Source: a virus. From it: a DNA stretch of 64,000 nt. A program made the position numbers and the translations under genes. Below the pieces are notes generated by a model. That model did not search any database. It saw only the letters and a program-made list of their open reading frames with translations, and was not told the DNA's origin. Location of the stretch: positions 1-64,000 of IMG/VR virus record IMGVR_UViG_2716884766_000001; one strand, given 5' to 3'. Below are positions 1 through 38,400 of the stretch, piece after piece (positions within the stretch are counted from its first letter, which is position 1; every line of letters begins with the position of its first letter).

Positions 1-539
1 ACTTCATGCTTCACACCACGTGGTGTACAAAACTCTCTCTTCAACCAGTTAGCAAACTTAACTGCGTCTAGATGATACCCAACATTTTTCTTTCCTGAGA
101 ATGATTCAAAGTCACTAATGGCAACTTTATTCTCTTTAATAATTCTCCAGTAAGGTGTCATCCATTCAGCAAACGATACCTCTGGATTACCATTGGTTGC
201 TCTGTAATGGAAGAACCAATCTAATATATCAGCATTGGCATTAGCAGGAGCAGCCCCATCATAGAAAGGATAATGGAAGTCTCCATACTCGCTAAAGTTT
301 TTAAAACATACGCTATACTTATATGTGGCTTCACACTCATCCATCCAGTTATCTGGGATGTTCATCTCAAGTGTCCAGTCACGAAAAAATTGAGTGGTTG
401 ATTCACCCACACCAATAGTAGGGATATCATCCGACTCAATTAGAGTAATCTTCTTTTTTGGAAATGATTTAATCAGAGTAGCAGCGGTCATCCATCCTGC
501 GGTACCGCCACCGACTATACAAATTGATTCAATTTTCAT
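1..539 (-). CDS. Tryptophan halogenase (PrnA-like flavin-dependent halogenase), runs off the left window edge
   Basis: Not in the ORF track. Manual translation from ATG at 539 gives MKIESICIVGGGTAGWMTAATL...ITLIESDDIPTIGVGESTT...ATYKYSVCFKNF...GYHLDAVKFANWL, i.e. the GGGTAGW FAD motif, IGVGEST and YHLDA motifs of the Trp halogenase family. Confidence 0.9.
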   Translation of the reverse strand, partial: MKIESICIVGGGTAGWMTAATLIKSFPKKKITLIESDDIPTIGVGESTTQFFRDWTLEMNIPDNWMDECEATYKYSVCFKNFSEYGDFHYPFYDGAAPANANADILDWFFHYRATNGNPEVSFAEWMTPYWRIIKENKVAISDFESFSGKKNVGYHLDAVKFANWLKREFCTPRGVKHE

Positions 540-548
540 AATGTAGGT

Positions 549-1067
549 TTATGTTCCCTTGTATACAGGTCTATTAGTTGTTGGATCTAATTCCCAACCA
601 GGTTCGTAAACAGTTTCGTTCTTGAACTTAGTTAGTTTCTGTCTCTTCTCAGCAGGAAGACTATTCCAAGCGGGTGCGTCTTCAGTACCCATCTCAAATT
701 CTTTCTTCCCTGCGTAGAACGTTGCATCCGCATCCGCAGCGTCCTGATTTACAATGCTTGTTTTTACAGCAGTTACGTGATCTTTCCATGTGGTAGTACC
801 ATTCATTTGATCCCAATACATCATATCGAGTTGCTCCTCGATTTGACCATATTCTACTTTTCTTTTCATCTGTTGGTTTCTTTCCAGTCTATCAGCACTG
901 TCAAAAAACTCACCATTATATAAGACCCACATGTTAGTGACGTTATCATCGTCACATGTGATCCATCTTAAAGGAGAATCATCTCCTTGATATACCTCGA
1001 ACTCTTCACCAGGCTCAACCACATCGGTGATGAATCCACGATAGTCTACTAAACAACTTTTAGCCAT
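549..1067 (-). CDS. Hypothetical protein, possible tail-fibre assembly/accessory protein
   Basis: 172 aa; YGQIEEQLDMMYWD...WKDHVTAVK motif resembles small proteins that follow fibre genes in marine phages; preceded by a late-promoter-like CTAAATA. Confidence 0.6.
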   Translation of the reverse strand: MAKSCLVDYRGFITDVVEPGEEFEVYQGDDSPLRWITCDDDNVTNMWVLYNGEFFDSADRLERNQQMKRKVEYGQIEEQLDMMYWDQMNGTTTWKDHVTAVKTSIVNQDAADADATFYAGKKEFEMGTEDAPAWNSLPAEKRQKLTKFKNETVYEPGWELDPTTNRPVYKGT

Positions 1068-3364: not shown

Positions 3365-6300
3365 TTAGATAATTACCCAACTACCGCCATTTGCGATTGA
3401 AATTGTATACCCATTGTTAACTGTTAGAGGACCAGCAGTGAAACATGAGTCTCCATTATTTATAGTGATACTCTCAGAGATAGATTGACGGTTTCTCTTT
3501 ATTATACCATATCTATCAACCCATTGCTTGTCTCCATTAGCACGAAGAACAACGGATCTCTGACCACTTGATACACCCACAGAACTTGAATCAATGTTAA
3601 GACCATTGTCTCCTCTGATCTCCATTCTGTAAGAGTTCTGAGTTGTGTCACTACCTGGTTCATAGAATGTCCATGTACCATAGTCACCATCACATGAAGC
3701 AATACTGTAGTCAGCATTGTTTCTCCAATAATAGTTATCACCACTACTATAGTATGTATGTGAGTCGTTAGCGAAGTAGAATCTTCTCTGACCTTCAGTG
3801 GTTGTGATCCACTCGTTAGTTGTTCTCTTCAAGTATGGAAGATCTAACGCATGGTATCCGTCAACCATATCAGCGTTCAAGTTAGAGTTAACTGTAGTAG
3901 ATGATATGTTGAATGGAGCAGTACCAGTTGAAACACGTGACCGTATTCTTCCGAAGAAGTGTACAGTAGAATCATTATAACGATACTTCATAACACGAGT
4001 ATCAGATCCACCATCTCTTCTGTAGAATGTTATGTCATCACCAGCTTCAGAGTTGAACGCACCAGGTGAGTTATCTCCATTGTAAGCGATACCACCACCA
4101 TAAGATAATGATTGTCCAACGTATAAGTATCCTGTACCTTGGTTATTACCAAATGCTTCAAAACCACACTGATAAGAGTCACCAGCTAATGCTCTAACAT
4201 ATGTGTTACCACTTCTACTTGTAGTACCAAAGGCAGCGTCTCCAGTAGATTGTAATGATATACCAGGATTGCTATCACCGATACCTAAACGTCCATTTCT
4301 GAAGTATACATTGTTGTATGATAGGTAAGAACCATTGTAACCGAATGAGTTACCATCATTACCAAATCTGATATAACCTTGACTTGAACTATTCTTACCT
4401 TTAATGGATAGAACGTTAGTGGTTGCCTTACCTACGGTAATACCATTACCATCACCAAGATTTAAAATTGATGTACCATTGTTAGTAAAGATACCTTGGT
4501 CACCGTGTATATCACTTACAAAGATATCACCAGATGATGTTCTACGTACAAGGTTGTTGCCCGCGTTGCCAGAGCTCTGAGTATAACCATCAACATAGTG
4601 TGCATCAAGTTGTGAGTTAACACCATCGTTACCCGCATGCCACACTGTGTTACTGTTGATAGTAACGCTACTGGACTTGATGTCCATGAGACCGTTACCA
4701 TTAGATGAGTTACCACCTGAGAACTCGAATCTTACATCATAGTTGTTTGATAGACCACCTGATCTTATATCAAAGTATGGTGTAGATACGATTCCTGCTC
4801 TACCCATTTCAAACAGAGCACCCTCAGCAGTATTGCTTAGAGCGAATACTTGTGAAGCACCTGTTGTTAATAGGTTAGATGATGTAACAGTCCACTTAGA
4901 GCCAGGGTTAGGACCGAAGACTCTGATGTCCTTGTTACCATAAGCACCAACGAATGTTATAGAACCAGTAACAACTGTATACTTAGCGTCTACAGTAGTA
5001 TCATTAGTCTCTGTGATACCACCTGGATCAATAGTGATTGTACCTATGTTATTTACAGCAGCATCATCAGCATATAGAGTGTATGTACCACCCGCTGAAA
5101 GGTTACCCGCAGGGTTTGAACCTGTTGCTGCGAAGAAGTTAGGAATGTATAATTGATATTTCTCTCCAGAGGATACAACGTAGAAGTTGTCAGCGACAAA
5201 CTTGTCTCTACCTAATAGAGTTGGTAAAGCTGGATCGCCAAGAACACCTACTGTTCTCTGGTCATGAATGTTATAACCTTGCTGATACCATAGACCTTGC
5301 TGATTATCTAAGAAGTCAGCGTTAGGACCTGGTAGTGTACCACGACGAGGTTCGTTAATGTCAGGAGGACCATCGTTCTCTGAATGCCATATCTTAGCCC
5401 AGTTACCATATACGTTAGATATGTCTGAGTTACCACGTAAGTATAGGTTGTCTGTAGCAGAGAATGATAACTGAGCAACAGAGTTGCCAGTAGCAGATCT
5501 TCTGAATGTTAATGTACCGTTTCTAGTTCCACCCGCGTCAGTTGGAATACCGTTAACGTTGTTAGATCTGAGTGCTAACTGAGCACCAACGTTTGCTGCT
5601 GATACGAGGTTAGCGTTAGCAGATGATGGAGCAGTTGTCTCAGCGAATAGTACGTTAGAGAAGTCAGCAGTACCAGATATGGATATAGCGTATGTGGTAT
5701 TTGCTAGACGTTGTGGATCAATAACACCTTCAACTAGGTTGGAAGCATTCTGATAGAACGCACCTTGGTTACCATCTAGTTTGTCAGCATTAAGTTCTGA
5801 TCCCGCACCTTGGTCGATGGATACTTCACCATTGTCTGTAACTCTGAATCCACCCTCTGTCTGATCACCAAGTGCTTGTTCAGCAACGTTCTTACGGAAC
5901 TTAGCAATACCGTAGTTACCAAAGACTGAACCACCAGCTTGTAATGTTGTTGGTGTAAGTTTGTTTGCCTTCTTAACGTCAATAGATGCGTTACCGAAGA
6001 ATCTAGGTAGAATACCCTTACGTGCGTTTAGTGTTGCTGCCTGTGATGGTGTACCTAGTTCATTTGGAACTGTTAGTACGAAGTCACCGTTATATCCAGT
6101 ACCTGGTGTAACCACAGATACACTGGTTATGACACCGAATGCTTGTGATGATGTTAGTGTTGATACACTGATCTCAACTGGTTGCTGTACTGTACCACCG
6201 AATAGAGGACCATCGAAGGTTAGTGTGTCACCACCTAAGTATCCAGATCCACCATTTAGTATGAGGTCAACTGATAGTGTACCTACACCGTCAGTAGTAA

Positions 6301-9300
6301 ATCTTATTTGAGCACCTAGACCCGCACCAGTTGTTGTAGATGGTGCTACGTCAAAGGTTGAGTTTGCTGTGTATGATTCAGGTGTCTGATTAAGGTTACT
6401 TACAGTAGCGATAATACCACCAGTAGTAACGTCAGCAACTGTGTAAGTAGCACGTGCTACTCCTGAGTCAGAGATAGGTACGTTACCACCCAACATTGGG
6501 ATGTTCTGATATGTACCGTTTGTATATCCTGTTCCTGCGACTGTTATGTCAACCTTCTCAATGTATGATGTGTCAGATAGACTTGACTCAGCAACCATAC
6601 AGTCAGCAGTTGAGAACTTGATAGACTGTATAACGTTCTGGTAAGAACTATCACCTCTTAAGAATGTGAATGAGTTCGCTATACCTGTTTTACCTAAACG
6701 CTCTGGGTCAATAGTACCCGCAACGATGTTAGATGCGTCAATGTTAGTTGATGATAACTGTGTCCAGTTAGCAGCGTCTTTAGCAGATGTGTTAACTGTT
6801 CTAATGACATCAACGATCTTCTTACGTTCGTAGTTACCAGATGTTAGCAGTGCGACTGCTGTTATAACTGTGTACTCGTTAGCGTTAACTGGAGTTACAT
6901 CATAGAAACCTGATGGAGATGAACCAGATGTAAAGTTAAGGTATACGATGTCACCTTGACTAAATCCATGATTGAGTTCTGTGACTGTGATATCGAATGT
7001 ATCATGTACGTATGTACCTGTAGCAACTGTCTGATTTGCTTCGTCTTGTAAGAAGTCAACGTTAGAGTACTTAATATTGTTCGCTAGGTCAACAGCTAAT
7101 CTTGCTTCAACTCTTGCTACATTACCTTGAGAAGTAGCAGTTGTACCACCTGTAGGAGCAGCAGTGAAGGTTACAGTAGGTTGTGTGAAGTATCCAGAAC
7201 CTTTGTTTGTAATTGTTATTGTGGATACTTGTCCGTTAACGATTGTACATGTCGCTGTTGCTTGTGTACCTGAACCGCCAGGTGCTGAGATTGTAATACC
7301 TGGTGGGTTTGTATATCCAGATCCAGTGTCGTCAACTAGAATGTCTCTAACAACACCTTGCTCATATCCTGTAATGATACCTTGAGCACCACTAGCAGAA
7401 CCAATAAGTATGTTGCCAGGTGTATATGTTAATGTTGAGTCAGGTGTGAACGCTACGAACATAGTGTCCAAATCATTCTCAAGAATGTAGGATATAGCAG
7501 CACCTTCAGTACGTAATGTATGAGTACCAGATCCTTGACTTGTTAGATTTCTAGCAGTACCACCTTGAGCATCAGATAGTGATGTAGCAAGTTTGATGTA
7601 GTCTGTGGTGTTAGCACCTACAGAGTGTACGATCACATAGTACTGAGCACCGTCTGCCAAGTTACCAATGTTACCAGTTCCTTGGAAGTAAGTTAGAATA
7701 TCACCTGTTGCTAGTCCGTGACCAGGTATTGTGATGTAGTTGTTAACTGTATCAACTGAAGCTGGTACGAATGTGAATGATGTAGATGTAGTTTCAATAG
7801 CGATGTCACCAGCTGATGCGTCTTCGATTGCTAGTCTCTCTGCTGTAGAAGCTACAGATGTAATATTGAATGGACGTAACGCAGGGATCTGTTCAATGTT
7901 GATCTTACCAGAGGTAGTCAACTGTACCAGAGCAGATGGAACAGCGTTAGTTGAGAATGGCTGGTTTAGGTATGGACCTAGTTTGTTAGTGATGTAATCC
8001 TTAACCGCTGCCTGTGTAGGTAGTAAGGAGTCAGAAGCGAACGCACCACCTAGTTCGTCACTGTCTGAAAATCCAGTGATAGTAATGGATCCACCAACAA
8101 TCTTAATAGATGAAAGTTCAGAGATACTAACAGTACCAACGAAACTAATAGAACCAGTTCTGTTGAAGATAGTAACGAAGTCTCCAACCTTGAAGTCACC
8201 AAACTCGTTAGTACCTGATGTATAAACCTGTCCGAATGATTCTTCAACAGCTTCGTTAGCAGGGATACCAACACCACCGTTTTGTGGTAGTGCTAAGTAT
8301 GTGTCACCCGCACCAACATATTCCCACGTATGTGAGGAAGAGTTACATACAGATGGTCTGTGTAATCTTATAGTCTTACCAACCAGAGTATCTAAGTTAC
8401 CCTGATCATATGATACTTCTGTATTTGTTGCGGTCTCATTTAGAGAAATTCCTAGACCGTCGTTTGTTGTAATATTAGCAGTAACCTGTGTACCGATAGA
8501 ACCAGATAACTTCTCTACACCTAGAATAAAGTATTCTTTAGCAGGGTCAGTATTAGTGTAACCATCAAACTTGATGATGTAATCTTCAATCGGGAAGTTA
8601 GTTAGTGTTGATCCACCAACCTCGATGATCTGACGACCTGTCTGAGCACCATTGTTATCAGTTTGGTTAACAACGTTTGTAACTGTACCTATGTCAAACT
8701 CATAAGCATCCTTTCTAAATCCAGTTGCTTTAAGAGCACGAGTACCGAAGTTAGACGCTGAGTTAGTTAGTGATGCATATCCACCTGACTGTACGATAAC
8801 TCCGTCTCCACCGAAGATAACGAACACAGACACCAACTGAGTATATCCATCGTTAAGAATGTTGTATCCAACACCACCACCGACTGAGATGATCGTGAAT
8901 GCGTTGGCAACCATTGACTTACCCTGTTTAGGGAAGACAGCACGTTCTCTACCGTTAGCATCTTGATAGACACCTGGTCTGGGAACGTTAGGTTCAGCAA
9001 CTTTAGCACCGTCAATCTCAGCACCTGACGCTCCTAAGAAGGAGATCAATGATGCGTTCTGAATATAAGGTGATGCCTCGATGACTGGTAGGTCAAGTAA
9101 GTCACCTAACATAGGAACTATTTTAAGACCACTGTCATCTTTAAGCAGTGTGCTTGGTTCAGTTAAGGTAACGCTACTTAGTGATGTAGGTGTAGCAAGA
9201 GCATTATCTAAAATTGTATGTAATGCTGTTAGAGCATTGATAGCAGCTCCACACTCAGGTTGATTATGATCAACTGTAGATGATGCGTTATGGAATGGTG

Positions 9301-12300
9301 CTATAGATGTAAACTTAGCTTCTGGTAACTGGTTACGTATAGCAAGGACTGCCATGTCCTTTGCCTTCTGGTATACAGCACGTGTTTGAGCAACTTCGTT
9401 GTTAACGTAGTTGATATTTGTTCCGAGAATATATTTGCTTGCGGCTTCAATAGTCTTCTTGTTACCACCATATCTTAAGTCATACATCCATGAACGTAGA
9501 ACATGTCTTACGTCATCAATACATTGATCATCAGATACAGGATATGTTCTAGCGACACCATCAAGATTACCAGGTGTACCTGTAGTACCGATAGCTTGTG
9601 TAATTATACCAGTTAATGTTGTGATAGAAGAAGCAACGTCAGCACAACGGTTAACGTATGATGCTGTTCTGGTTACAGATGATAGACTTCCTGTGTCAAT
9701 CGCAACCTCAACGATATTCATTAAGGTAGTGATAGAAGATATAACCACGTTACAGATTGGTAGACCTGTATCCTGTGTGATAGTTAGATCTTTAACCTGT
9801 GCTATAGATGTATGTCCACCTGTTACTACAGTCTCGTTCTGGAATACTTCGATAGCAACTTTCTGTGCCTCTCGTAAAGCATATATTGAATGATGTTCTT
9901 CACCTTCTAGATGAGCACCAGTAACATACATGTTAGCAGCGTCATAGGTAAAGTCGTTTCCACCCATTGCTAGGTTCCAAGAAACAACCTGTAGAATATC
10001 TACAACGTCATCCTTACAGTCAACGTTAGTACCTGATACTTCAACACCGTTAGAAGTAGCAGAGATGAATCTGTGTGGGAAGTCACCACCACTCTTAACA
10101 ACGACTCTGTTGATACATCCTGTTGTAGCACTTACGAATGTATGTGCTGTGGTGTTAGTAGGTGTAGTTCCTTGTAAAGCATTGAACTCAAATGTGTCAG
10201 CAGTTACACGCTCAATCTTAACAGACTTGTTGAATATAGGATCGCCAGGTCTAGGATAAGCATGGTTAGTTACGTTACTGTCTTGAGCACAAGTGAATAC
10301 GATACTCTCTTGATCTACCTTGATATAGTCTCCTGCGATCAAACCATGACCAACTTTGGTTACTGTCATCCAACCAGTAGTTGAGTTGTAATCAACAGTT
10401 GTAGGAGTTACTCCTGTAGCAGGAACAAAGGTGTGATCAGTTACGTTAGTAGAAGGTGTCTGACTTAGAACATTAAAGTTTAGAGTTGTGTCTTTAACAC
10501 TGATACCATTAGCAGTAGCAGATACGAATGCGTGAGTAGTCTCGTTTGAAGATGTTGCGATACAAACCTCGAATGTATCTTTATTAACAACCTTGACATG
10601 TCTCCACTCATTACTGTCTGGGTCTTTTTGAATGATTCCATTTGCTACAGCAGATACAAATACGTGTGTAGTAGTGTTAGTAGATGGAGTTACATCTAAA
10701 GTCTTAAATGAGAATGTATCGTTACTTACAGCAGTAACAGGAATGAATATGCCACTGATAGGATCAGTTGATCTTGGATATGCGTGTTCAGTTGCGTCAC
10801 CATCTTGTCCACATGTAAATGTGATAGCACCATCTTTAACCTTGATGTACTCACCTTTCTTAATACCGTGACCAGCTACAGTGACTGTTACTACACCAGT
10901 AGCAGTGTTGTAACTAGCATCTGTTGGTGTAAATTTCTTTCTCTCTGCTCTTGGATATGAATGGTTAGTAGCATTGCTGTCATGATCACATGTAAATGTG
11001 ATTGAGTCATCAGCAAACTTAACCATGGAGTCTTCTCTCAATCCATGATCAGCAGACGTAATTGTTATCTTACCTTCTGTTGGTACATATACTGCGTTAG
11101 TTGCTGTTAATGTTGAATCAGTAATAGATGTAATTTCAACAGCAGTATCATATAGTGGGTCTTTCTTGATTGATAGACCATTTGTTGTAGCAGATACAAA
11201 TGTATGAGCAGTTGTGTTGGTTGAAGGAATGTTACCTACACCCAATACCTGTACGTTAAATGTATTAGTAGAAACGTTTGATACAGTTAACCATCTGTCA
11301 TTAGCATAGTCTGTTGCTCTTGGATATGTATGGTTAGTACCATTATTATCCTCCATACAAGTGAATGTTAATGAGTCAGTAGCAAACTTAACCTGATCTC
11401 CATTAGCAAGACCATGGTTAGATGCTGTAACTATCATCACACCTGTAGAACCTTGATAGTTAGCACTCTCAACTGTGTCTGTGTCTACAGCAGATCTTGG
11501 ATAGTATTTGGTTGATACGTTACCATCTTGTGTACATGTGAACCCTATTGAATCAGGAGCAAGTCTCATGTATGTTCCTGCCTTAAAGTTGTTAGTACCA
11601 ATGTTGACAGACATAGCCCCTGTATTTGGGTTATATGCTGCGTCTCTTACATCGTACCCGTCAACAGTTGTAGGTCCTACATTGATGTCAATAGTATTAA
11701 CACTAGCAGATACAACAGGTGACCAACCATTACCATTAGCAGGGTCGGTTGCTCTTGGATATGTGTGAGTGGTATTACCATCATCCATGTCACATGTCCA
11801 AGTCATGCTATCAGTAGCAATCTTAAGATACTTGGAAGTGTCAATACCGTGACTTAAGATAACAGCGTCAGCTAAAGCATTCTGGAATACATGAGTAGAT
11901 GTATCACTAGAAGCACCAACGTTAACTGTAATAGTTGAACCAGATACTGCTGTAATTGCTAGGTCTTGCTCGTAAGCCCTATCTCTCTTCTTCTCTAATC
12001 CATTTGCTACAGCAGATACAAATGTATGTGTTGTAGTGTTTGGTGATATTGCTACGTTAACTTCAAATCCTAATCCTGTAGTGTTAGAAACTTCTAACCA
12101 CTTACCAATAACAGGATCTGTATCACGTGGATATGCGTGACTACCTGTACCAGCTTGACAGTCAAATACGATTGACTCTTCTTTGAATCTGATCCAGTCA
12201 CCATCAGTCAATCCATGACCAGCTGTTGTTGTTACGCTTAGTACACCAGTACCAGGTGTGTATACTGCCCCAGAAATTGTTGAGGTATCAATAGTAGTAC

Positions 12301-15300
12301 GTGGATAATAGTGATCAGTAGACTGTCCATCAAGATCACATCTGAAGTTAAGTGATCCTGTTTTAATTCTAATCTTATCGTTAGTCGTTAATGTATGAGT
12401 ACCGATATTAAGTTCTAGTAAACCTGAAGAAGGAGTGAATGAAGCAGCTGATACTTGTTTAACATCAGTATTAACTGTTACTGTCATCAATCCAGTAGCA
12501 GGATTATATTCTGCGTGTTGAGCAGTTCTCTTTTGTGGAGATGGAACGTTGAATGTTCTAGGTGTAGTCTTCTTGATAGCGTTTAGACTATCGTTAAGAA
12601 TAGCACTGTGTATGATTTCAAATAATGAATCTACAGCAGCTTTTACCTCTACACAGTCAGCAGCTGTATGTCTACCAGCTGAGTTTGATACATCATGTGT
12701 AATAGTGAGATCAAATGTCTGTGTTAATCCATGATCACCTCTTACCACAACCTCGTTGTTAGCAAGAACTAATTTACAAATTTCTCTAGCATGTTCGATA
12801 CAACGAACTGATTGGAACTCCTCGTCATCTAGGTGAGGTGTACCAACATAATACTTCGCAGCATCCCATACTTTATTGTTACCACCGTGCTGTACGTTGA
12901 AAGCAACAGCATCAACAATATCTACGATGTCATCTATACAATCTTGTCCGTTACCTGTTGGAACGTGTAGTGTGGGATCTTCAGCAAGTTCCCAAGCATA
13001 TGCCTCAGCACCGATAAACTCTCTGTTAGCAATTAGTAGATCGTGAGCATCAACTACCTTGTTATTAGCAACTTCAAATCCAAAGTCAGCATTCATTCTA
13101 CCGACTGCTATGTCAGCAATGAACTGTCTGTTAGCCCATATTAGGTTACGAGCATCAGCATGTTTGTTACTTTGACCTGATCCTGCTGCGTCAGGAGTAA
13201 TTGTAAAGTCTCTAATCTGTGTAAGACCATGACTACCCTGTACAGTAACAGGATCATTTCTCATGATCTGTATAGCAATGTCTCTTGCGTGGTTGAATGT
13301 CTCTACAGATTCATTCTCTTCACCTACGACATGAGAACCATCAACGTAATACTTAGCACCATCCCATACTTGGTCGTTACCACCGTATGCTAGGTTATAT
13401 CCCATTGCCTCACAGTAGTCAACAATATCATCAATACATGCTTGGTTACCAGTAGGAACCTGATATGATGGGTTGTTGGCAAGCATTCTGTCTACTGCTT
13501 CCTGAGCAATAAACTGTTTGTTAGCAAGGATTAGAGATGTACCATCAGCAGATCTATCTGAAGGAGGTACACTGTTTGGTGTCTGCCATGGAGCAGGGAC
13601 TGTTATTGTAATATCTCCACTGTCTGTGCTAGCACCACCTAAGATAATGGTAGCAGTTCTGTGGTCAGCAACATCATCTATGATGTATGAACCATCAGGA
13701 GTAGCACCACTGAATACTATACTATATGCGTTCTTACCAAATACACCATGACCTCTTGGGCAGACAACTGTCATTACATTACCAGAGCATGTGTATGTAC
13801 CCTTTCTTGTAAATGTGGCAGAAGTTCCTGCGTTATTTAATTTCTTGACGTGAGCATATGACTCTAAAGCTATAAAGTCAACGTTGTTATTGATTGTCTC
13901 AGCACCGTCTCTTTGCTTAGACATCTCTTTGAAGTCAGCACCAAACTCAACCTTCTCAAATGCGTAAGGAGAGTTCCTTAATGACATCAAAGCATAGTTT
14001 GTAGCAGAACAAACCTGTTGGTCTCCAGATGGATCAAAGTCTGTAGCAAACTTAGAACATGAACCTCTGACTACAAACTTAAGTGAGTAACCATCAGCAC
14101 GTTCTATACGATGTGTAACGTATTTTCTTCCGTTGAAGTCACCAAGGTTATCAAAGATAGCAGCACTACCAGATCTAGTAACACTGTCTGATCCTCTGAT
14201 TATAAAGTATACTTCGTTTGTTGATGCGTTATATCTAGCAACACCAGCTCCTAAGTTAGAACTGCCACCCAAAATAGTAGCAAAATCACTCTGTGCTTGT
14301 GCTAGTGTACCAGCTCTATATGTCGCAACATGGAATGATTTATCTTGATGTTGACTACCAGTACCACTAAAGTTAAGACGAATACCAACACCCTTGTCAG
14401 CTGGAGGAGCATCAGAAATACTGATCAACGTTGGCCAGATCACATTCATCTTAGAAGGATCTGTATTAGCAAACGTTACTGTAAGAGTATTGCCACTCTG
14501 GGTGTATGTACCGCTAGCACTGGTACCAAAGTCTATAGGACTATATGGTAGACCGTAGATATGAACTTCTTGTCCTGCTTCGTAGTCATGACCAACAAAA
14601 GGAATACCTTCTATTGTTCTGGAAGCAGAAGTTACCTCAAAGGAAATACCTCTGTAAGTCTCTTGTGTGTTTAACGAACTATCGACTTGGTTGATGTCAA
14701 TAACGTTAAGTGCTTTCTCGAATCTATGATAACCTTTACCTATATCCGTGATAGGAAGGATAACAGGATCATCAGCACCAGATATATCAATATTGGTAGC
14801 ATCGGCTTGAGTATTTGCGACTTGGAAATAGTTGTTGTCTACTTTATAGACGTAGTATAGACCATTATTTGTAAGACCACCTATGTCCCCTGCCTTTGAA
14901 GAACGATAGTATACACCGTTACCAGTGAATAAACCATGCTTAGGGAAATAGAATGTATTATCTTTTACACTAATTCTACATGTGAAGAGTGTGTGTTCGT
15001 CTCCTGTACCAGGATCACCTAGGTCTCTTCTACCTGTGGTTGTTTGTAAGTTAAGTGCGTTAGCAGCAGTATCATATAATTCTAATGAATTGTCATCTAT
15101 AACTCTAACAAAATATGAGTCACCAGATGTTAAACCAGCTGGAGCAGTGCCACCTTCATTCTCTACTTTATATTCTACTTTGAAACCAGTCTTTAATCTG
15201 TGTAGAGGAACAGATATTTGATTTGTAGTAGCATCTACGATAGTAGCATTACTACCATCGAAACGTAATGTCTCTGTCTCAGAGTTAATTACCCACTGAT

Positions 15301-16780
15301 ACCTTTGGTGTTTGATAACCTCAGTTTCAGGTCTTTGTGATTCTCTATCAGCAACGTCGAGTGAGTCAGATGGTGAAGCACCTGTCTTAACGATGTTAGC
15401 GTAGACATCAGCATAGTATAATCTTTCAGCGAGCTGGAAGGTTGATTCATCATCATCCATCAGTACCGTGATAGTACCAGATGAGTATGGTGATGCTTGA
15501 GGACCTGTAAACGTGACAGCTTCAATGATCGCTCTAGCAGAAGATGATCCACCCTCTACAGCGTATCCAACAAGTAATGTAGTATTGTCACCTGTGTGGT
15601 TCTCAAATGTAATAGCAAAGATGTTTCTACCTTTGTTTTCTAGACCTGGTGAGAACTCAAATGGTTCTAGGTCTGGTTCATACATTAATCTCTGCTTATC
15701 GTCAAACACATAAGCATACTTCCATGTATAGTCAGGAGATCCATTAGCATCTAAGTGGTCTCTGAATACAACACCAGAACAATACGTCTCGTTTGACGCT
15801 TTGATCATGTGTCTGTCCATGTTTAATGGACGTAGGATAACTCTTCTTAAGTTATCTCCAATCAGTGAACAGTTAAATGGTAGAGAGATCGGGTTGTCTT
15901 CTACATAATCACCACCTGAACAGATGATAGAAACATATTCAGGAGTCTGTGTGTCTTGCTGTAAACTATAAGCTATCTGTGCTGCTTTCTTAATTGTACG
16001 AACTGGTTTAGCAGCTGATCTACCATCGTTAGCATCATCACCAATACCAGCTACAGATGATACGTAAACACGACCACCATTGTCAGCAGTAGCAACGTCA
16101 TATACAAACTTGGTAGTAGCAATTCTATTATTCTGTGTCTGACGAGGAGGGTTGTCAGCAGTTGGATAGTAGATTGTACCAAAGTCAGAAGCTGTTGGGT
16201 CTGTCTCTTCAAAGTTAATTAAATTAGGACCTCTAAGGTCTAGTCCCTTAGTAACAAACTCGTTAGTAACGTCTAGGTTTCTAATTTGAGCAGTATCTGA
16301 GATGATAGATCTTGTAGTTCTGATCTGTCCTTCAACGTCAAGGTCAAACTCAGGATTGGTGTTGTTAATACCAACACGAACGTTACCTGTAGCACTCTTG
16401 GTTATGAATATAGCGTCTTCTTCATCAGCACCTGATCCGATACTGAACTCCATCTTGTCAGATGCGTTAAAAGTTAATGATCTAACACTTCTGTATGATA
16501 TTGATGTGGCAGCTTCAATAAAGTTTGTACCTGTACCTGTAATTGTAAATGTATCTTCGTCTACGACAGTAATATTATAATTTCCAGCTGTAAAAGTTCT
16601 TAGTAAACTATCTTGACCTGGCTTAACGTATAAGAGATCGTTGTTGTTTAACTTGTGAGCAATAGATGTAACAGTAACTATACCATTCGCACGTCCATAC
16701 GTAGCACTTGTCCACGGACCCTGCGGGACCTGACCTGTACCCTCTATTCTCTGTTGCGAAGAACTCTGCCTAAGTGTCAT
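3365..16780 (-). CDS. Giant tail-fibre / virion structural protein (4471 aa) with nested repeat domains
   Basis: N-terminal pectin-lyase-like beta-helix start (VYVS...DGRSAAKPVRTIKKA); nested helical and beta repeats; G.GY...P hairpin repeats; fibre-shaft motifs LNADKLDG, NADFLD, LDAHYVDG, LNADMVDG; C-terminal AGPLTVNNG...GGSWVII. Confidence 0.85.
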   Translation of the reverse strand: MTLRQSSSQQRIEGTGQVPQGPWTSATYGRANGIVTVTSIAHKLNNNDLLYVKPGQDSLLRTFTAGNYNITVVDEDTFTITGTGTNFIEAATSISYRSVRSLTFNASDKMEFSIGSGADEEDAIFITKSATGNVRVGINNTNPEFDLDVEGQIRTTRSIISDTAQIRNLDVTNEFVTKGLDLRGPNLINFEETDPTASDFGTIYYPTADNPPRQTQNNRIATTKFVYDVATADNGGRVYVSSVAGIGDDANDGRSAAKPVRTIKKAAQIAYSLQQDTQTPEYVSIICSGGDYVEDNPISLPFNCSLIGDNLRRVILRPLNMDRHMIKASNETYCSGVVFRDHLDANGSPDYTWKYAYVFDDKQRLMYEPDLEPFEFSPGLENKGRNIFAITFENHTGDNTTLLVGYAVEGGSSSARAIIEAVTFTGPQASPYSSGTITVLMDDDESTFQLAERLYYADVYANIVKTGASPSDSLDVADRESQRPETEVIKHQRYQWVINSETETLRFDGSNATIVDATTNQISVPLHRLKTGFKVEYKVENEGGTAPAGLTSGDSYFVRVIDDNSLELYDTAANALNLQTTTGRRDLGDPGTGDEHTLFTCRISVKDNTFYFPKHGLFTGNGVYYRSSKAGDIGGLTNNGLYYVYKVDNNYFQVANTQADATNIDISGADDPVILPITDIGKGYHRFEKALNVIDINQVDSSLNTQETYRGISFEVTSASRTIEGIPFVGHDYEAGQEVHIYGLPYSPIDFGTSASGTYTQSGNTLTVTFANTDPSKMNVIWPTLISISDAPPADKGVGIRLNFSGTGSQHQDKSFHVATYRAGTLAQAQSDFATILGGSSNLGAGVARYNASTNEVYFIIRGSDSVTRSGSAAIFDNLGDFNGRKYVTHRIERADGYSLKFVVRGSCSKFATDFDPSGDQQVCSATNYALMSLRNSPYAFEKVEFGADFKEMSKQRDGAETINNNVDFIALESYAHVKKLNNAGTSATFTRKGTYTCSGNVMTVVCPRGHGVFGKNAYSIVFSGATPDGSYIIDDVADHRTATIILGGASTDSGDITITVPAPWQTPNSVPPSDRSADGTSLILANKQFIAQEAVDRMLANNPSYQVPTGNQACIDDIVDYCEAMGYNLAYGGNDQVWDGAKYYVDGSHVVGEENESVETFNHARDIAIQIMRNDPVTVQGSHGLTQIRDFTITPDAAGSGQSNKHADARNLIWANRQFIADIAVGRMNADFGFEVANNKVVDAHDLLIANREFIGAEAYAWELAEDPTLHVPTGNGQDCIDDIVDIVDAVAFNVQHGGNNKVWDAAKYYVGTPHLDDEEFQSVRCIEHAREICKLVLANNEVVVRGDHGLTQTFDLTITHDVSNSAGRHTAADCVEVKAAVDSLFEIIHSAILNDSLNAIKKTTPRTFNVPSPQKRTAQHAEYNPATGLMTVTVNTDVKQVSAASFTPSSGLLELNIGTHTLTTNDKIRIKTGSLNFRCDLDGQSTDHYYPRTTIDTSTISGAVYTPGTGVLSVTTTAGHGLTDGDWIRFKEESIVFDCQAGTGSHAYPRDTDPVIGKWLEVSNTTGLGFEVNVAISPNTTTHTFVSAVANGLEKKRDRAYEQDLAITAVSGSTITVNVGASSDTSTHVFQNALADAVILSHGIDTSKYLKIATDSMTWTCDMDDGNTTHTYPRATDPANGNGWSPVVSASVNTIDINVGPTTVDGYDVRDAAYNPNTGAMSVNIGTNNFKAGTYMRLAPDSIGFTCTQDGNVSTKYYPRSAVDTDTVESANYQGSTGVMIVTASNHGLANGDQVKFATDSLTFTCMEDNNGTNHTYPRATDYANDRWLTVSNVSTNTFNVQVLGVGNIPSTNTTAHTFVSATTNGLSIKKDPLYDTAVEITSITDSTLTATNAVYVPTEGKITITSADHGLREDSMVKFADDSITFTCDHDSNATNHSYPRAERKKFTPTDASYNTATGVVTVTVAGHGIKKGEYIKVKDGAITFTCGQDGDATEHAYPRSTDPISGIFIPVTAVSNDTFSFKTLDVTPSTNTTTHVFVSAVANGIIQKDPDSNEWRHVKVVNKDTFEVCIATSSNETTHAFVSATANGISVKDTTLNFNVLSQTPSTNVTDHTFVPATGVTPTTVDYNSTTGWMTVTKVGHGLIAGDYIKVDQESIVFTCAQDSNVTNHAYPRPGDPIFNKSVKIERVTADTFEFNALQGTTPTNTTAHTFVSATTGCINRVVVKSGGDFPHRFISATSNGVEVSGTNVDCKDDVVDILQVVSWNLAMGGNDFTYDAANMYVTGAHLEGEEHHSIYALREAQKVAIEVFQNETVVTGGHTSIAQVKDLTITQDTGLPICNVVISSITTLMNIVEVAIDTGSLSSVTRTASYVNRCADVASSITTLTGIITQAIGTTGTPGNLDGVARTYPVSDDQCIDDVRHVLRSWMYDLRYGGNKKTIEAASKYILGTNINYVNNEVAQTRAVYQKAKDMAVLAIRNQLPEAKFTSIAPFHNASSTVDHNQPECGAAINALTALHTILDNALATPTSLSSVTLTEPSTLLKDDSGLKIVPMLGDLLDLPVIEASPYIQNASLISFLGASGAEIDGAKVAEPNVPRPGVYQDANGRERAVFPKQGKSMVANAFTIISVGGGVGYNILNDGYTQLVSVFVIFGGDGVIVQSGGYASLTNSASNFGTRALKATGFRKDAYEFDIGTVTNVVNQTDNNGAQTGRQIIEVGGSTLTNFPIEDYIIKFDGYTNTDPAKEYFILGVEKLSGSIGTQVTANITTNDGLGISLNETATNTEVSYDQGNLDTLVGKTIRLHRPSVCNSSSHTWEYVGAGDTYLALPQNGGVGIPANEAVEESFGQVYTSGTNEFGDFKVGDFVTIFNRTGSISFVGTVSISELSSIKIVGGSITITGFSDSDELGGAFASDSLLPTQAAVKDYITNKLGPYLNQPFSTNAVPSALVQLTTSGKINIEQIPALRPFNITSVASTAERLAIEDASAGDIAIETTSTSFTFVPASVDTVNNYITIPGHGLATGDILTYFQGTGNIGNLADGAQYYVIVHSVGANTTDYIKLATSLSDAQGGTARNLTSQGSGTHTLRTEGAAISYILENDLDTMFVAFTPDSTLTYTPGNILIGSASGAQGIITGYEQGVVRDILVDDTGSGYTNPPGITISAPGGSGTQATATCTIVNGQVSTITITNKGSGYFTQPTVTFTAAPTGGTTATSQGNVARVEARLAVDLANNIKYSNVDFLQDEANQTVATGTYVHDTFDITVTELNHGFSQGDIVYLNFTSGSSPSGFYDVTPVNANEYTVITAVALLTSGNYERKKIVDVIRTVNTSAKDAANWTQLSSTNIDASNIVAGTIDPERLGKTGIANSFTFLRGDSSYQNVIQSIKFSTADCMVAESSLSDTSYIEKVDITVAGTGYTNGTYQNIPMLGGNVPISDSGVARATYTVADVTTGGIIATVSNLNQTPESYTANSTFDVAPSTTTGAGLGAQIRFTTDGVGTLSVDLILNGGSGYLGGDTLTFDGPLFGGTVQQPVEISVSTLTSSQAFGVITSVSVVTPGTGYNGDFVLTVPNELGTPSQAATLNARKGILPRFFGNASIDVKKANKLTPTTLQAGGSVFGNYGIAKFRKNVAEQALGDQTEGGFRVTDNGEVSIDQGAGSELNADKLDGNQGAFYQNASNLVEGVIDPQRLANTTYAISISGTADFSNVLFAETTAPSSANANLVSAANVGAQLALRSNNVNGIPTDAGGTRNGTLTFRRSATGNSVAQLSFSATDNLYLRGNSDISNVYGNWAKIWHSENDGPPDINEPRRGTLPGPNADFLDNQQGLWYQQGYNIHDQRTVGVLGDPALPTLLGRDKFVADNFYVVSSGEKYQLYIPNFFAATGSNPAGNLSAGGTYTLYADDAAVNNIGTITIDPGGITETNDTTVDAKYTVVTGSITFVGAYGNKDIRVFGPNPGSKWTVTSSNLLTTGASQVFALSNTAEGALFEMGRAGIVSTPYFDIRSGGLSNNYDVRFEFSGGNSSNGNGLMDIKSSSVTINSNTVWHAGNDGVNSQLDAHYVDGYTQSSGNAGNNLVRRTSSGDIFVSDIHGDQGIFTNNGTSILNLGDGNGITVGKATTNVLSIKGKNSSSQGYIRFGNDGNSFGYNGSYLSYNNVYFRNGRLGIGDSNPGISLQSTGDAAFGTTSRSGNTYVRALAGDSYQCGFEAFGNNQGTGYLYVGQSLSYGGGIAYNGDNSPGAFNSEAGDDITFYRRDGGSDTRVMKYRYNDSTVHFFGRIRSRVSTGTAPFNISSTTVNSNLNADMVDGYHALDLPYLKRTTNEWITTTEGQRRFYFANDSHTYYSSGDNYYWRNNADYSIASCDGDYGTWTFYEPGSDTTQNSYRMEIRGDNGLNIDSSSVGVSSGQRSVVLRANGDKQWVDRYGIIKRNRQSISESITINNGDSCFTAGPLTVNNGYTISIANGGSWVII
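9188..13915 (-). repeat. Four nested ~140-aa helical repeats (D[AG]..LI..N..FIA / C.DD / GGN / C..V...I)
   Basis: Four N-terminal motifs, four C.DD-GGN cores and four terminal Cys helices appear in bracket-like rather than tandem order. Coordinates are approximate. Confidence 0.8.
10031..12524 (-). repeat. Eight nested ~100-aa beta repeats (A.Y.P.TG / HGL / FTC..D / H.YPR..DP / H.FVSA..NG)
   Basis: Eight F/W-x-C motifs and eight YPR motifs in the translation, with motif order showing insertion of copies into copies. Coordinates are approximate. Confidence 0.85.
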
Positions 16781-35457: not shown

Positions 35458-38400
35458 CTGTATAAACACGGATAGTTGGAAGGATCTCCATTGTACCCGT
35501 TGCTGTCAAAGATACTGGTAAAGATATGCTGAACGCAGTGTCACTCGCACGAGTAATCTTATACGTTCCATTTAATGATCCTGTAGGCCAATTTCCAATA
35601 GCAGATGTAAATCTGATGAATCTCTCCATACCAGTTTGGAGATTATGATTAGAACCCATTGTGATCACACAGTTAGTTCCACTACTATTGAAGTTTCCAG
35701 ATTCAGGTCCGTTAGCGTAACCAAATCCAAGAGCAGTTCCTGTATTTTTGAATCCTCTACCGTTTGTAGTAACAGTAAATGTCTCTGCTGCGTAATCTAC
35801 AGAACCATATAAGATTCTTTCACAACCCCATGTTGATGTTGAGGCATTCCAGAAAGGAATTAACAACTCACCGTTAGTTGGGAATCCAACTCCATTATTA
35901 TAGTATGCGTCAAGAACAGGAATAGTAGCAGTCTGCTGACCGATAGCACCAGTTAATTGTGTGGTGTATAGGAATGTACCATTAGATACTGCTCTGTCTC
36001 TCTGTGTCCTCTCTAAAGCGATTGGATGATATGGTGTGACAGAAGGAGGAGTATTGTAATTAGAACCACCTTTTAGGTTCTTGATGCCAATAACTCTACC
36101 ACTACCTTGCTCAATAATAGTCTCAGCAAATGCTCCAGATCCACCGCCACCACTAAAGATTAGGAATGGGGCAACCTCATAGTTAGATCCAGAATCAATT
36201 ATATTGACTTGTACAACAACACCGTTAACTACAACAGATTGGAATATAGCAACATTCGGTTTTAGACCTGTATACTCATATGTATCTAAGGAGGAAGAAC
36301 TAGCAATAGTAGCAAGTCTTCTGATGTCTCCTTCTGACTGTACCTGTAGTAAGTCGCCAGGATCAAGAGCAGAATATGTATCCTCAATTACAATATCAAG
36401 ATCAGAACCAGTGTAGATGTATATTAATACTTCACTACCAGCTCTAGGTGCTTCACTAAACTCAAGAATAGAACCATCCAATGTGTATGATACTTCAGGT
36501 TCCTGATAAACACCGTTCAAGAACATGATAAGGTTGTTAGCAGGGATAACCTGAGTAGAATCAGATTCTAGTGAGAATGGTTGGTCATTCTTCTTAAGTA
36601 TGAATGTCTTCTTCGTACCGTTCATGAATGGTGCGATAGAGTCCATATCTTGTAACTGTCCCACATAGAAACAGTAGAAGTCCATATTACCCTTTGGTGC
36701 TTCAGTAAAGTTAATTGTAGAAGGTGTGCCAGAGTAACTATATGCTGTACCTAACTCCTGTATGTGTGAGTTCAAGAATAATAGGAACCTGTCGTTAGCA
36801 GGAAGTGTATATCCTGATCCACCTACAGTAGCAGCAAAACCAGTTGTTGTTCCGTTGAATGTAACTGTCTCTACTTCAACTTGGAATGAGTTACCCACTG
36901 TACCACCTACGTCAGCAGCATCTACACCAAGTACGTCTGTGTTCTTATATCCGTCTCCACCACTGACTAAGCTTACACCTGTAACAGCACCTGTAGTTCT
37001 TGCTATAGGAGCACTGAGTGTACCAGCTGCTGTAGAAGCACTACCACCTGTGAGAGATAAGGTAGGTGTAGAAGCATATCCTACTCCTGTCTCTTGTACG
37101 ACTATTCTTTCTAAATGTCTACCTACAATAGCAGCTGCGGTAGCAGTTGTAGTTATTGTGTCGGCAGGATTCGCAATAATCTCAATAGTGACATCGTTAT
37201 ATCCAAATCCACCTTCATCAACTGTAATACCAGTGAGAGCCCCACCAGACACAGTAGCGGTAGCAGCAGCATTAAACCCAGTCTTTGATGTAATCTTAAC
37301 TGTTGGTACATTAGTATATCCGACTCCTCCGACGATAATTCCGATTGATTTGACATAACCTCTTTCTGCTAATACTGGTACATAGGATCCTGCTGTTGTT
37401 GGAGATCCACCAGAGATCTGAACTGTAGGAGCTGTCTCATATCCATCACCATGATTACCAACTGTTCTAGTTATACCAGAGAAGTTACCTTGGTTCAAAG
37501 CTGTATATGCTAGATCCATCAAGGTATCAACAGTTGCTTGTACAGCAGTACACGCTTCTCTAACTCCATAACCTTGCTTCACAGCATTAGGAGTAGCACT
37601 CAAGAATGTATGTGTATAGTTTCCACCAATAGTAAGAGCATTGGTTAGAGATGATGAGTATACATGTGTTGAAGCATTAGTAGCAGCAATACCAACGTTA
37701 ACTGTAATCCTGTCAATAGAAGATCTTACAATACTTAATGGTTGATCATATGCCTGATCCTTCTTCTGTTTCAATCCATTTGATGTAGCAGATACGAAAG
37801 CATGTGTTGTTGTGTTTGTAGAAGGTATAAAGTCTAATACTCTAACTTTAAATGTATCTGTGGTTACATTTCTAATCCTTAACCATTTGCCACTCACAGG
37901 GTCTGTAGAACGTGGATATGTATGGTTACTACCATTACCATCCTCAGCACAAGTAAAGGTCAATGAGTCATCGTCAAACTTAACGTAGTCACCCTTTCTC
38001 ATAGAGTGCCCAACTACAGTAACTACCATGTCACCGTCAGCAGGAGTGTATACAGCGTTGGTGACTGTGTGGTTGACTATATCTGTTCTTGGATATGAGT
38101 GAGTAGAACTGCTACTTCCTGCTATACCAACGTCAACTGTAATAGTTGTTGCTGATACTGCTGTGATTGCTTCAGCAACACCTGATGATGGGTCGCTAGC
38201 CCTAGGGTATGCATGATTAGTTGCGTGATTATCAGCAGCACAAGTAAATGTAACTGAATTATCAGCAAAGGTTACTGTGTTAGATGTGGTCAAACTATGT
38301 GTACCTATCTCAACTTCCATAAGACCTGTGAGTGGATCATAGGTTGTACCTGTCGCTGCTGTGAATGTTCCTGACGCTCCATTACCCGCTGTGATACCGT

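What the first reader, a model, noticed from the sequence alone, without database searches (positions are those of the whole stretch)
10031..12524. Eight-node tree of beta modules in the 4471-aa protein
Seen parse: A opens (AEYNPATGLMTVTV) [B ...FRC...HYYPR [C complete] KKRDRAY...HVFQNA] A resumes (SHGI...WTC...HTYPR...INVG) [D ...FTC...KYYPR [E complete] KKDPLY...ITSI [F ...FTC...HSYPR [G complete] QKDPDS...HAFVSA] D resumes (TTLNFNVL...HTFVP) [H complete]] A closes (GGDFPHRFISATSNG). All eight openings have a matching closure. The parent-plus-child-after-YPR pair occurs three times here and once in gp7, which suggests that pre-nested pairs were copied as units.
Basis: seen in the sequence. 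Interest (0 to 1): 0.9.

Follow-up and report, generated by a model that had tools for sequence, protein, structure and literature searches.

The report
Eight beta-barrel domains nested like dolls
A giant tail-fibre protein of a T4-like cyanophage contains eight copies of one ~100-residue beta-barrel domain inserted into each other's loops four levels deep; this is a well-supported example of recursive domain insertion, a rare architecture so far described mainly in cyanobacterial RNA polymerase.

Summary
Residues 1419-2247 of the 4471-aa ORF (window 3365-16780, minus strand) map formally onto one ~101-position module profile as 4 complete copies (C, E, G, H) and 4 split copies (A, B, D, F). 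The pieces of each split copy have complementary profile coordinates and occur in strict last-in-first-out order.

Three results show that this is real nesting and not decayed tandem repeats:
- Orthologues P0022 and P0012 lack child E exactly, and their parent D reads straight through the YPR junction.
- AlphaFold2 of the pair F[G] gives pLDDT 93.6 and pTM 0.81. Split F and, in the 836-aa model, split B each appear to superpose on one contiguous solved barrel.
- All pieces are conserved among orthologues.

The fold resembles the E1 FCCH domain and the endosialidase beta-barrel. No Pfam family is reached, and the module is PHROG 1276, of unknown function. The family is narrow: 700 of 1.84 billion proteins, and those I could name are cyanophage structural proteins.

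D[E] arose by a single-module indel, and the module tree is unresolved, but homologue P0028 repeats a 4-deep nest as a unit.

Recursive insertion is already known in cyanobacterial RNA polymerase SI3 (PMC13114784). I therefore rate this a new variant of a known kind. The scan also noted related nests elsewhere on this same genome.

The parts
3365..16780 (-). 4471-aa ORF (P0001), the tail-fibre-like virion protein that carries the nest
   Evidence: ORF list. PHROG 5342 'tail fiber protein', E=0. Orthologues in Prochlorococcus phages MED4-213, P-HM1 and P-HM2 are annotated as tail fiber protein.
12458..12526 (-). A piece 1 (aa 1419-1441): opening strands of root module A, before insertion site 1
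   Evidence: HMM positions 1-19, iE 0.0015. Best opener-matrix score in the whole protein.
12299..12457 (-). B piece 1 (aa 1442-1494): N-half of B, ending in YPR
   Evidence: HMM 2-55, iE 2e-14.
11987..12283 (-). C (aa 1500-1598): complete module, child of B at the YPR loop
   Evidence: HMM 1-101, iE 1e-33. VIA matches to contiguous barrels span model 82..187.
11861..11986 (-). B piece 2 (aa 1599-1640): C-half of B
   Evidence: HMM 54-99, iE 0.0011. VIA rows spanning model 24/26..229 with only 71-76 aligned residues, which I read as split B forming one barrel.
11663..11860 (-). A piece 2 (aa 1641-1706): middle of A (HG loop, W-T-C, YPR, two strands)
   Evidence: HMM 20-77, iE 5e-15.
11495..11662 (-). 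D piece 1 (aa 1707-1762): N-half of D, ending in YYPR
   Evidence: HMM 3-55, iE 1e-13.
11171..11479 (-). E (aa 1768-1870): complete module, child of D at the YPR loop. Absent in orthologues P0022 and P0012-14.
   Evidence: HMM 1-99, iE 8e-44. The gap in P0022 and P0012 begins right after YPRS, and D is contiguous there.
11111..11164 (-). D piece 2 (aa 1873-1890): one strand of D between inserts E and F
   Evidence: Not detected by HMM. Placed by the alignment of rejoined modules and by contiguity with D piece 1 in P0022.
10949..11110 (-). F piece 1 (aa 1891-1944): N-half of F, ending in YPR
   Evidence: HMM 1-54, iE 6e-21.
10631..10933 (-). G (aa 1950-2050): complete module, child of F; the deepest node (level 4)
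   Evidence: HMM 1-100, iE 1e-44. VIA matches span model 58..166 of the pair model.
10499..10630 (-). F piece 2 (aa 2051-2094): C-half of F
   Evidence: HMM 55-100, iE 2e-9. In the pair model, the match to the contiguous E1 FCCH domain (4p22_B 216-296) has Z 8.6, rmsd 2.4, 76 aligned, spanning model 1..210.
10415..10498 (-). D piece 3 (aa 2095-2122): last two strands of D
   Evidence: HMM 68-95, iE 2e-6.
10094..10411 (-). H (aa 2124-2229): complete module, sibling of D in A's last loop
   Evidence: HMM 1-101, iE 2e-42.
10040..10093 (-). A piece 3 (aa 2230-2247): closing strand of root module A
   Evidence: HMM 89-99, not significant on its own (iE 3.4). Rank 6 of about 4460 windows with the core closer matrix. 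G-G, H, F, S-A are invariant in 12 orthologues, including four where it lies about 1480 aa after A's middle piece.
37568..41887 (-). Related nest of the same module in gp7 (aa 2797-4236 of the 4940-aa ORF at 35453-50275)
   Evidence: HMM hits include a complete copy at 4070-4171 followed by a C-half at 4172-4215. Eight YPR motifs. This nest was not fully parsed here.

Best explanation
Residues 1419-2247 of this cyanophage tail-fibre protein are eight homologous ~100-residue, all-beta barrel domains joined by recursive domain insertion. The tree is A{B{C}, D{E, F{G}}, H}.

Each child is a complete module that leaves and re-enters its parent through one inter-strand loop. Four loops are used, at profile positions of about 20, 56 (just after the conserved YPR), 68 and 78-88. 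Each parent still folds from its separated pieces.

An inserted barrel returns the chain close to where it left. Modules can therefore be added or lost without moving the flanking scaffold. This fits orthologous fibres that carry 3 modules (P-HM2), 7, 8, 10 or about 20.

Inferred function: the result is a compact, branched cluster of lectin-like barrels displayed on the fibre. I think it most likely acts as a multivalent, low-affinity binder of the picocyanobacterial cell surface, or failing that as a stiff decoration or strut. The architecture is shown; the function and the way new copies arise are inferred.
For: Shown:
(1) The pieces have complementary profile coordinates, under two profiles.
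(2) The eight rejoined modules align end to end with all conserved motifs, at 24-50% identity.
(3) The order of pieces is last-in-first-out; only 0.12% of random orders pass the same grammar.
(4) In P0022 and P0012, D reads ...YYPRS-NGN-DPFY... without a break, where P0001 carries the E insert, about 106 residues longer, right after YPR. The total lengths are 4362 and 4471 aa.
(5) AlphaFold2 of F[G] gives pLDDT 93.6 and pTM 0.81, with no residue below 70.
(6) VIA-align matches one contiguous solved barrel (4p22_B 216-296; Z 8.6, rmsd 2.4, 76 aligned) across model 1..210, which I read as split F. Other chains match 58..166, which is G.
(7) The 836-aa model gives pLDDT 80.9 and pTM 0.61. It has rows for C, E, G and for split B (24/26..229; 71-76 aligned; Z 5.6).
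(8) Orthologous modules cluster by position with starred support, so the architecture is older than these phages' divergence.
(9) The same grammar appears in homologues. The pattern N-half, complete copy, C-half occurs 48 times in 33 of 120 proteins. Last-in-first-out continuations number 209 against 110 +/- 7 in shuffles. P0028 has a 4-deep nest with three closers in a row. P-HM2 has a 3-deep nest.

For the functional inference:
- The fold matches the endosialidase beta-barrel (K1F 424-506: Z 7.4, rmsd 2.1; phi92 256-338/343: Z 7.7-8.0) and outward-facing barrels of phage tail proteins.
- That endosialidase barrel holds a polysialic-acid binding site and is a host-discrimination hotspot (PMC12632334).
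- FCCH-type domains face outward on siphovirus tail tubes (PMC13576161).
- Module number varies between orthologues.
Against: - No atomic coordinates were available to me, so I could not inspect contacts between the pieces of A and D. For these two the structural support is only pLDDT of about 58-90 and weak VIA rows (1..836 at Z 3.5; 2..289 at Z 3.9).
- VIA reports only the first and last aligned residue, so the reading that split F and split B each form one barrel rests on the span plus the aligned length.
- A's closing strand and D's middle strand are not significant HMM hits on their own.
- The 836-aa model rests on only 13 sequences.
- Z values of 7-9 are within the range the tool calls common for unrelated folds, so the link to lectin-like barrels is a fold resemblance only.
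- No binding, metal or virion-location data exist for this protein.
- Fibres are usually trimers, and a monomer model cannot exclude pieces being completed between chains.
Confidence: 0.85

Rival explanations
1. This is a tandem, bead-on-string array in which the partial copies are decayed remnants of unequal recombination, not pieces of functioning split domains.
For: Partial HMM hits are common in the family (603 hits of the 1-80 class). gp7 contains shortened 'mini' copies. My general parser left many pieces unmatched (216 orphans).
Against: The pieces are exactly complementary and correctly ordered. They are conserved at 77-89% among orthologues over the whole segment. Split F is modelled at pLDDT of about 88-97 and split B at about 82-93, and each matches one contiguous barrel. 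D becomes contiguous when E is absent.
Confidence: 0.03
2. The split modules are completed between chains of a trimeric fibre (a domain-swapped or knitted arrangement), not within one chain.
For: Phage fibres are generally trimeric with intertwined chains (general knowledge).
Against: The monomer models are confident without partner chains. Linkers at the junctions are short (0-9 residues), which suits a child that returns to its own parent. Related barrels in endosialidase and E1 are monomeric inserted domains.
Confidence: 0.07
3. The structure is as described, but the nests grew mainly by separate tandem duplications of N-halves and C-halves (an out-and-back hairpin), or by copying pre-nested units, and not by insertion of single complete modules.
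For: P0028 repeats a 4-deep nest as a unit. B's C-half is closest to the gp7 half-module (48%). AU tests do not reject child or parent clades.
Against: E is a clean single-module presence/absence within D. In the best tree, children and parents are interleaved. E's nearest non-orthologous relatives are complete modules of other phages at 58-64% identity, not a neighbour. DNA repeats between copies are old, at 60-84% over short stretches.
Confidence: 0.2
4. The barrel cluster has no ligand-binding role. It is a rigid spacer or brace that sets the geometry of the baseplate or fibre.
For: The conserved residues (Y, G, H, F-x-C, H-x-YPR, D, H-x-F) are the same in every copy and look structural. 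Loops were not shown to be hypervariable. Fold matches carry no functional information (tool note).
Against: Module number is not conserved between orthologues (3 to about 20), which fits poorly with a fixed-length strut. The nearest solved barrels in phage proteins face outward, and one binds glycan (PMC12632334, PMC13576161).
Confidence: 0.35

Closest known systems
SI3 region of the cyanobacterial RNA polymerase beta' subunit (rpoC2): eight hybrid-motif (SBHM/HABAS) domains in a six-level recursive insertion (PMC13114784)
   Same: One small beta domain family is inserted repeatedly into copies of itself. The pattern is A1-B1-C-B2-A2 with branching nodes. There are about eight domains in about 550-830 residues. 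Simpler relatives have fewer copies that are not nested.
   Different: The protein is a virion fibre, not a polymerase. The module appears to differ: no RNA polymerase chain is among the 50 listed structural matches, and none of six sampled sequence hits is a polymerase. Depth here is 4, not 6. Copy number varies far more between close orthologues.
Beta-barrel domain of phage endosialidases (Pfam PF12195; K1F endoNF 424-506, phi92 256-338/343)
   Same: A small barrel of about 80 residues inserted in a loop of a larger domain of a phage tailspike. Structural match Z 7.4-8.0, rmsd 2.0-2.5, 77-82 aligned. Three of 47 modules give sub-threshold Pfam hits.
   Different: It is a single copy, not nested. 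The Pfam threshold is not reached. The conserved F-x-C and H-x-YPR signature is not part of that family as far as tested. Sialic-acid binding residues were not compared.
FCCH domain of ubiquitin-activating enzyme E1 (Pfam PF16190) and FCCH-type decorations of siphovirus tail tube proteins (PMC13576161)
   Same: These are the best structural matches: Z 8.6-8.9, rmsd 2.4-2.8, 76-81 aligned. The FCCH domain is a closed antiparallel barrel (PMC13576161) and, from my own knowledge, is itself an inserted domain in E1. It faces outward on phage tails.
   Different: The Pfam score is 15.6 bits against a cut-off of 29.5. Sequence identity is only 10-18%. These domains are single copies.
PHROG 1276 (unknown function)
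   Same: The module matches it at E 1e-59 in seven stretches in this protein and E 9e-75 in gp7.
   Different: The PHROG is an unannotated 325-position profile, and nothing on nesting is recorded with it.
Single-level insertion domains in phage structural proteins (P22 coat I-domain 2m5s; carbohydrate-binding inserts in 'evolved' Dit and Tal proteins)
   Same: A beta domain plugged into a loop of a virion protein and facing outward. The P22 I-domain appears among the structural matches at Z 4.9.
   Different: These have one level only, and host and insert are unrelated folds. The Dit and Tal comparison is from my own knowledge and was not tested.

Membership tests
Recursive (nested) domain insertion, A1-B1-C-B2-A2 (as defined in PMC13114784) | The host domain's sequence is interrupted, and the flanking pieces map to complementary parts of one domain model | tested here: met
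   A = 1-19 + 20-77 + 89-99; B = 2-55 + 54-99; D = 3-55 + (56-67 by alignment) + 68-95; F = 1-54 + 55-100.
Recursive (nested) domain insertion, A1-B1-C-B2-A2 (as defined in PMC13114784) | An inserted domain is itself host to a further insertion (depth greater than 1), and the pieces are properly nested | tested here: met
   A > D > F > G gives depth 4. The stack grammar accepts the order, and 1196 of 1e6 permutations do.
Recursive (nested) domain insertion, A1-B1-C-B2-A2 (as defined in PMC13114784) | The separated pieces of a host fold together as one domain in three dimensions | tested here: inconclusive
   Indicated for F (1..210, 76 aligned, Z 8.6) and B (24/26..229, 71-76 aligned, Z 5.6) in AlphaFold2 models. 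For A and D there are only weak rows. No coordinates or experimental structure were available.
Recursive (nested) domain insertion, A1-B1-C-B2-A2 (as defined in PMC13114784) | Homologues without the insert have a contiguous host domain | tested here: met
   D in P0022 and P0012. Not available for the other three hosts.
Pfam PF16190 E1_FCCH | The sequence reaches the family's gathering score | tested here: not met
   15.6 bits against 29.5. Five of 47 modules hit below threshold, best E 0.0042.
Pfam PF16190 E1_FCCH | Closed antiparallel beta-barrel of about 80 residues superposable on solved FCCH domains | tested here: inconclusive
   Z 8.6-8.9, rmsd 2.4-2.8, 76-81 aligned. These are top-ranked, but Z is near the level the tool calls common.
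Pfam PF12195 End_beta_barrel | The sequence reaches the family's gathering score | tested here: not met
   Three of 47 modules hit weakly, best E 0.0072; nothing for the window's module E.
Pfam PF12195 End_beta_barrel | Sialic-acid binding site in the barrel | not tested
   The site is described in PMC12632334. No coordinates were available to compare residues.
PHROG 1276 | Significant match to the profile | tested here: met
   E 1.1e-59, 7 stretches.
RNA polymerase beta' SI3 hybrid-motif (SBHM/HABAS) domains | The same fold or detectable homology | tested here: inconclusive
   No RNA polymerase chain is among the 50 listed rows. Six sampled profile hits of 1125-1454 aa are not polymerases. 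Absence from a list does not exclude the fold.

The most novel reading that the evidence does not exclude
This module family follows a general 'grammar' of self-insertion at four permissive loops. Cyanophages use it to grow and prune dendritic arrays of receptor-binding barrels on their baseplate fibres, from 3 to more than 20 domains in orthologous proteins, sometimes copying whole nests as units. Host range would then be tuned by adding or removing branches. That would make it the most extensive natural system of recursive domain insertion known, and a ready-made scaffold for protein engineering.
Probability: 0.35. Interest if true: 0.8.

Novelty: new variant of a known kind. Interest (0 to 1): 0.62.

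Why it matters
Domain insertion is common, but multi-level nesting is rare, and inserts are normally smaller than and unrelated to their hosts (PMC13114784). Here a ~100-residue barrel is both host and guest, four levels deep. The nest branches, and its size changes between closely related phages.

This offers a natural series (3, 7, 8, 10 and about 20 modules) for studying how discontinuous domains fold and how new domains are added to a protein whose two ends are fixed in a machine.

If the barrels bind host-surface glycans, the tree is a candidate host-range determinant of abundant marine Prochlorococcus and Synechococcus phages. It also explains part of why these phages' structural proteins are so large, and it warns that linear domain annotation will misread them.

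Tried and rejected
- Foldseek against the PDB gave nothing at E <= 0.001; the best hit was UBA1 at 8e-3.
- A profile search of PDB sequences gave only a marginal hit to iota-carbonic anhydrase with three weak stretches, which I judged spurious.
- Pfam on the whole protein gave only sub-threshold E1_FCCH and Phycobilisome hits.
- Adding single modules or pairs as extra rows to deepen the 836-aa alignment was rejected, because MAFFT scattered the fragments across several modules.
- My generic stack parser at iE < 0.01 on 120 homologues left many orphans and open modules, because short pieces escape HMM detection. It shows enrichment of nesting, not complete parses, and its 'maximum depth' figures are unreliable.
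- A loose regular-expression count of closers against openers over-counts and was not used.
- No RNA polymerase SI3 chain appeared among the listed structural matches.
- Literature searches for nested modules in cyanophage proteins found nothing.
- An opener regular expression I wrote was faulty (0 matches inside the segment) and was replaced by the matrix scan.

Full report
**Context.** The window is the baseplate and tail-fibre block of a T4-like cyanomyovirus, with all genes on the minus strand:
- gp6 (50278-52152)
- a 4940-aa gp7 (35453-50275)
- gp8
- ORFs of 2229, 559, 2377 and 179 aa
- the 4471-aa ORF at 3365-16780 (P0001)
- three ~250-aa paralogues

Nucleotide and protein searches find only Prochlorococcus and Synechococcus phages. 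The nearest cultured relatives of the 4471-aa protein are the 'tail fiber protein' genes of MED4-213, P-HM1 and P-HM2.

- YPR 8 times, all inside the segment
- H.F[VIQ] 8 times, all inside
- [FW].C 10 times, 8 inside

I built one profile from the four uninterrupted copies and a second from 47 complete modules, 43 of them from other proteins. Both map the segment in the same way. There are four full-length hits (C, E, G, H). The partial hits have profile coordinates that fit together:
- A = 1-19 + 20-77 + 89-99
- B = 2-55 + 54-99
- D = 3-55 + 68-95
- F = 1-54 + 55-100

The only gap is an 18-residue strand of D (1873-1890), which is too short for HMMER. It aligns in place once D is rejoined, and it is contiguous with D's N-half in orthologues that lack E.

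A's opener and closer are weak HMM hits. I scored them with matrices trained only on other proteins' modules. A's opener is then the top window in the protein, and its closer ranks 6th of about 4460 windows. The eight openers and the eight closers each occupy ranks 1-7 and 9.

The 14 pieces satisfy a strict stack grammar, which only 0.12% of random orders satisfy. The eight rejoined modules align over their full length with all conserved positions, at 24-50% identity. The tree is A{B{C}, D{E, F{G}}, H}. H follows D's closing strand, so it is a second occupant of A's last loop.

**Is it nesting or debris?** Three independent lines point to nesting.

1. *A natural deletion series.* Orthologues with the same architecture (P0005, P0010, P0004) conserve every piece. 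P0022 (4362 aa) and P0012-14 lack E, and in them D runs straight through: the E gap opens right after YPRS, and the sequence then continues with DP.Y. P0001 carries an insert about 106 residues longer at exactly that point.
2. *Structure prediction of a pair.* AlphaFold2 of F[G] with 47 natural pairs gives mean pLDDT 93.6 and pTM 0.81, all-beta, with no residue below 70. In an exhaustive structural comparison, the contiguous E1 FCCH domain (4p22_B 216-296) aligns at Z 8.6, rmsd 2.4, over 76 residues spanning model residues 1..210. I read this as the split parent F. Other chains align to 58..166, which is the child G.
3. *Structure prediction of the whole segment.* The 836-residue model (13 orthologues) has pLDDT 80.9 and pTM 0.61. 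It gives rows for C (82..187), E (351..459), G (532..639) and split B (24/26..229, with only 71-76 aligned residues).

For A and D I have only adequate pLDDT and weak rows.

**Where do inserts go?** Four sites recur, at profile positions of about 20, 56 (right after YPR), about 68 and 78-88. In the pair model each lies between predicted strands. The same sites recur across 120 homologues. Hit classes ending or starting near these positions dominate, and the pattern N-half, complete copy, C-half occurs 48 times in 33 proteins. Continuations match the top of the stack 209 times, against 110 +/- 7 in shuffles.

Three examples in other proteins:
- P0028 shows the principle plainly. Three openers and a complete copy are followed by three closing strands in a row, and this four-deep unit is repeated several times.
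- P-HM2's orthologue has a three-deep nest at 1022-1335.
- In P0012-14, A's closing strand lies about 1480 residues after A's middle piece.

**What is the module?** No Pfam family is reached. It is PHROG 1276, of unknown function. A profile search of 1.84 billion representative proteins finds only 700 at E <= 0.001. Predicted-structure matches in BFVD at E <= 1e-6 that carry an organism name are Synechococcus phage proteins, and weaker rows include uncultured Caudovirales. An ESM Atlas cluster matches the whole pair at TM 0.80.

The best solved matches are:
- E1 FCCH domains, Z up to 8.9
- the endosialidase beta-barrel (K1F 424-506, Z 7.4, rmsd 2.1; phi92, Z 7.7-8.0)
- barrels of phage tail proteins, including FCWL1, T1, N4 and lambda gpJ

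These Z values are at the level the tool warns can be a common arrangement, so I treat this as a fold resemblance and not as membership. The endosialidase barrel holds a polysialic-acid site and is a host-discrimination hotspot (PMC12632334). FCCH-type domains face outward on siphovirus tails (PMC13576161). From this I infer a surface-exposed, possibly glycan-binding role. It is not shown.

**The 'copied as pairs' idea.** Orthologous modules cluster by position with starred support, so the architecture predates these phages' divergence. Deeper branches are unresolved:
- Children C, E and G are not a clade in the best tree, and parent F joins gp7 child VIII (90/93, below the star threshold).
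- AU tests reject neither a child clade (p 0.465) nor a parent clade (p 0.116).
- D[E] cannot be a copied pair, because E alone is present or absent.
- E's closest non-orthologous relatives are complete modules in other phages' proteins, at about 58-64% identity.
- DNA repeats between copies are old.
- In favour of unit copying, B's C-half is closest to the gp7 half-module that follows copy VIII (48%), and P0028 clearly repeats a whole nest.

This inference is therefore partly supported.

**Comparison with what is known.** Recursive insertion has been described. A survey of 2.7 million domains reports that nesting is a minority pattern and that inserts are usually smaller than their hosts. It singles out the SI3 region of Prochlorococcus RNA polymerase beta', with eight hybrid-motif domains in a six-level recursive insertion (PMC13114784).

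The present case is the same kind of architecture built from what appears to be a different module, in a virion protein. Host and guest are of equal size and of one family, and copy number varies widely between orthologues. I found no paper describing it.

The scan's own notes record related nests on this same genome, in gp7 and in the helical modules. I used one of them to re-read the gp7 half-module, and I checked only parts of it.

**Verdict.** The function is inferred. I rate it a new variant of a known kind, of moderate to high interest.

Noticed in passing
window 37568-41887 (gp7 aa 2797-4236): gp7 carries its own nest of the same module (eight YPR motifs). It includes shortened copies that lack the YPR part, a half-module (…THSYPR [complete copy] KKDQAY…), and long helical domains inside one module's insert. 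My HMM mapping did not give a fully balanced parse here.
   Followed up: partly
P0028 aa 271-700 and repeats at about 745, 1759 and 2232: A homologous 4764-aa protein has a four-deep nest with three closing strands in a row (…HTFVSS…HTFISA…HTFVRT…). The nest is repeated as a unit several times.
   Followed up: partly
L001:3580-14613 (Prochlorococcus phage P-HM2 PHM2_096, aa 1022-1335): The cultured phage P-HM2 has a three-deep nest of the same module. It lies before the helical modules, not after them, and the protein is 3677 aa against 4471 aa here.
   Followed up: partly
window 12527-13700 and 9100-10039 (P0001 aa about 1030-1418 and 2248-2560): The beta tree is flanked on both sides by repeated helical modules with a C-x-D-D-[IV] … G-G-N … Y-Y-V signature, which give weak Pfam Phycobilisome hits. 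I did not test whether the tree sits inside one of them.
   Followed up: no
P0001 aa 23-86, 992-1058 and 3254-3323; 2377-aa ORF aa 320-395 (window about 23300-23530): Simpler ~70-residue modules carry the same opening strands and H-G-[LF] loop but lack F-x-C and YPR. They may be the plain ancestor of the nested module.
   Followed up: no
window 10040-12526, all eight modules: One Cys (F-x-C) is invariant and up to three His are conserved or nearly so (H-G, H-x-YPR, H-x-F) in each module, which suggests a metal site. D has K in place of the second His. In P0012-14, module A has M-T-Y-P-K instead of H-T-Y-P-R.
   Followed up: no
P0006/P0007/P0009/P0011 aa about 1708-1975: In these orthologues the N-half of D is replaced by a shortened copy plus two extra modules (about +210 aa). 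These rejoin D just before its YPR, which suggests recombination within modules as well as whole-module insertion.
   Followed up: partly
window 1093-3364: Three abutting ~250-aa paralogues (PHROG 863 'tail fiber assembly') follow the 4471-aa gene.
   Followed up: no
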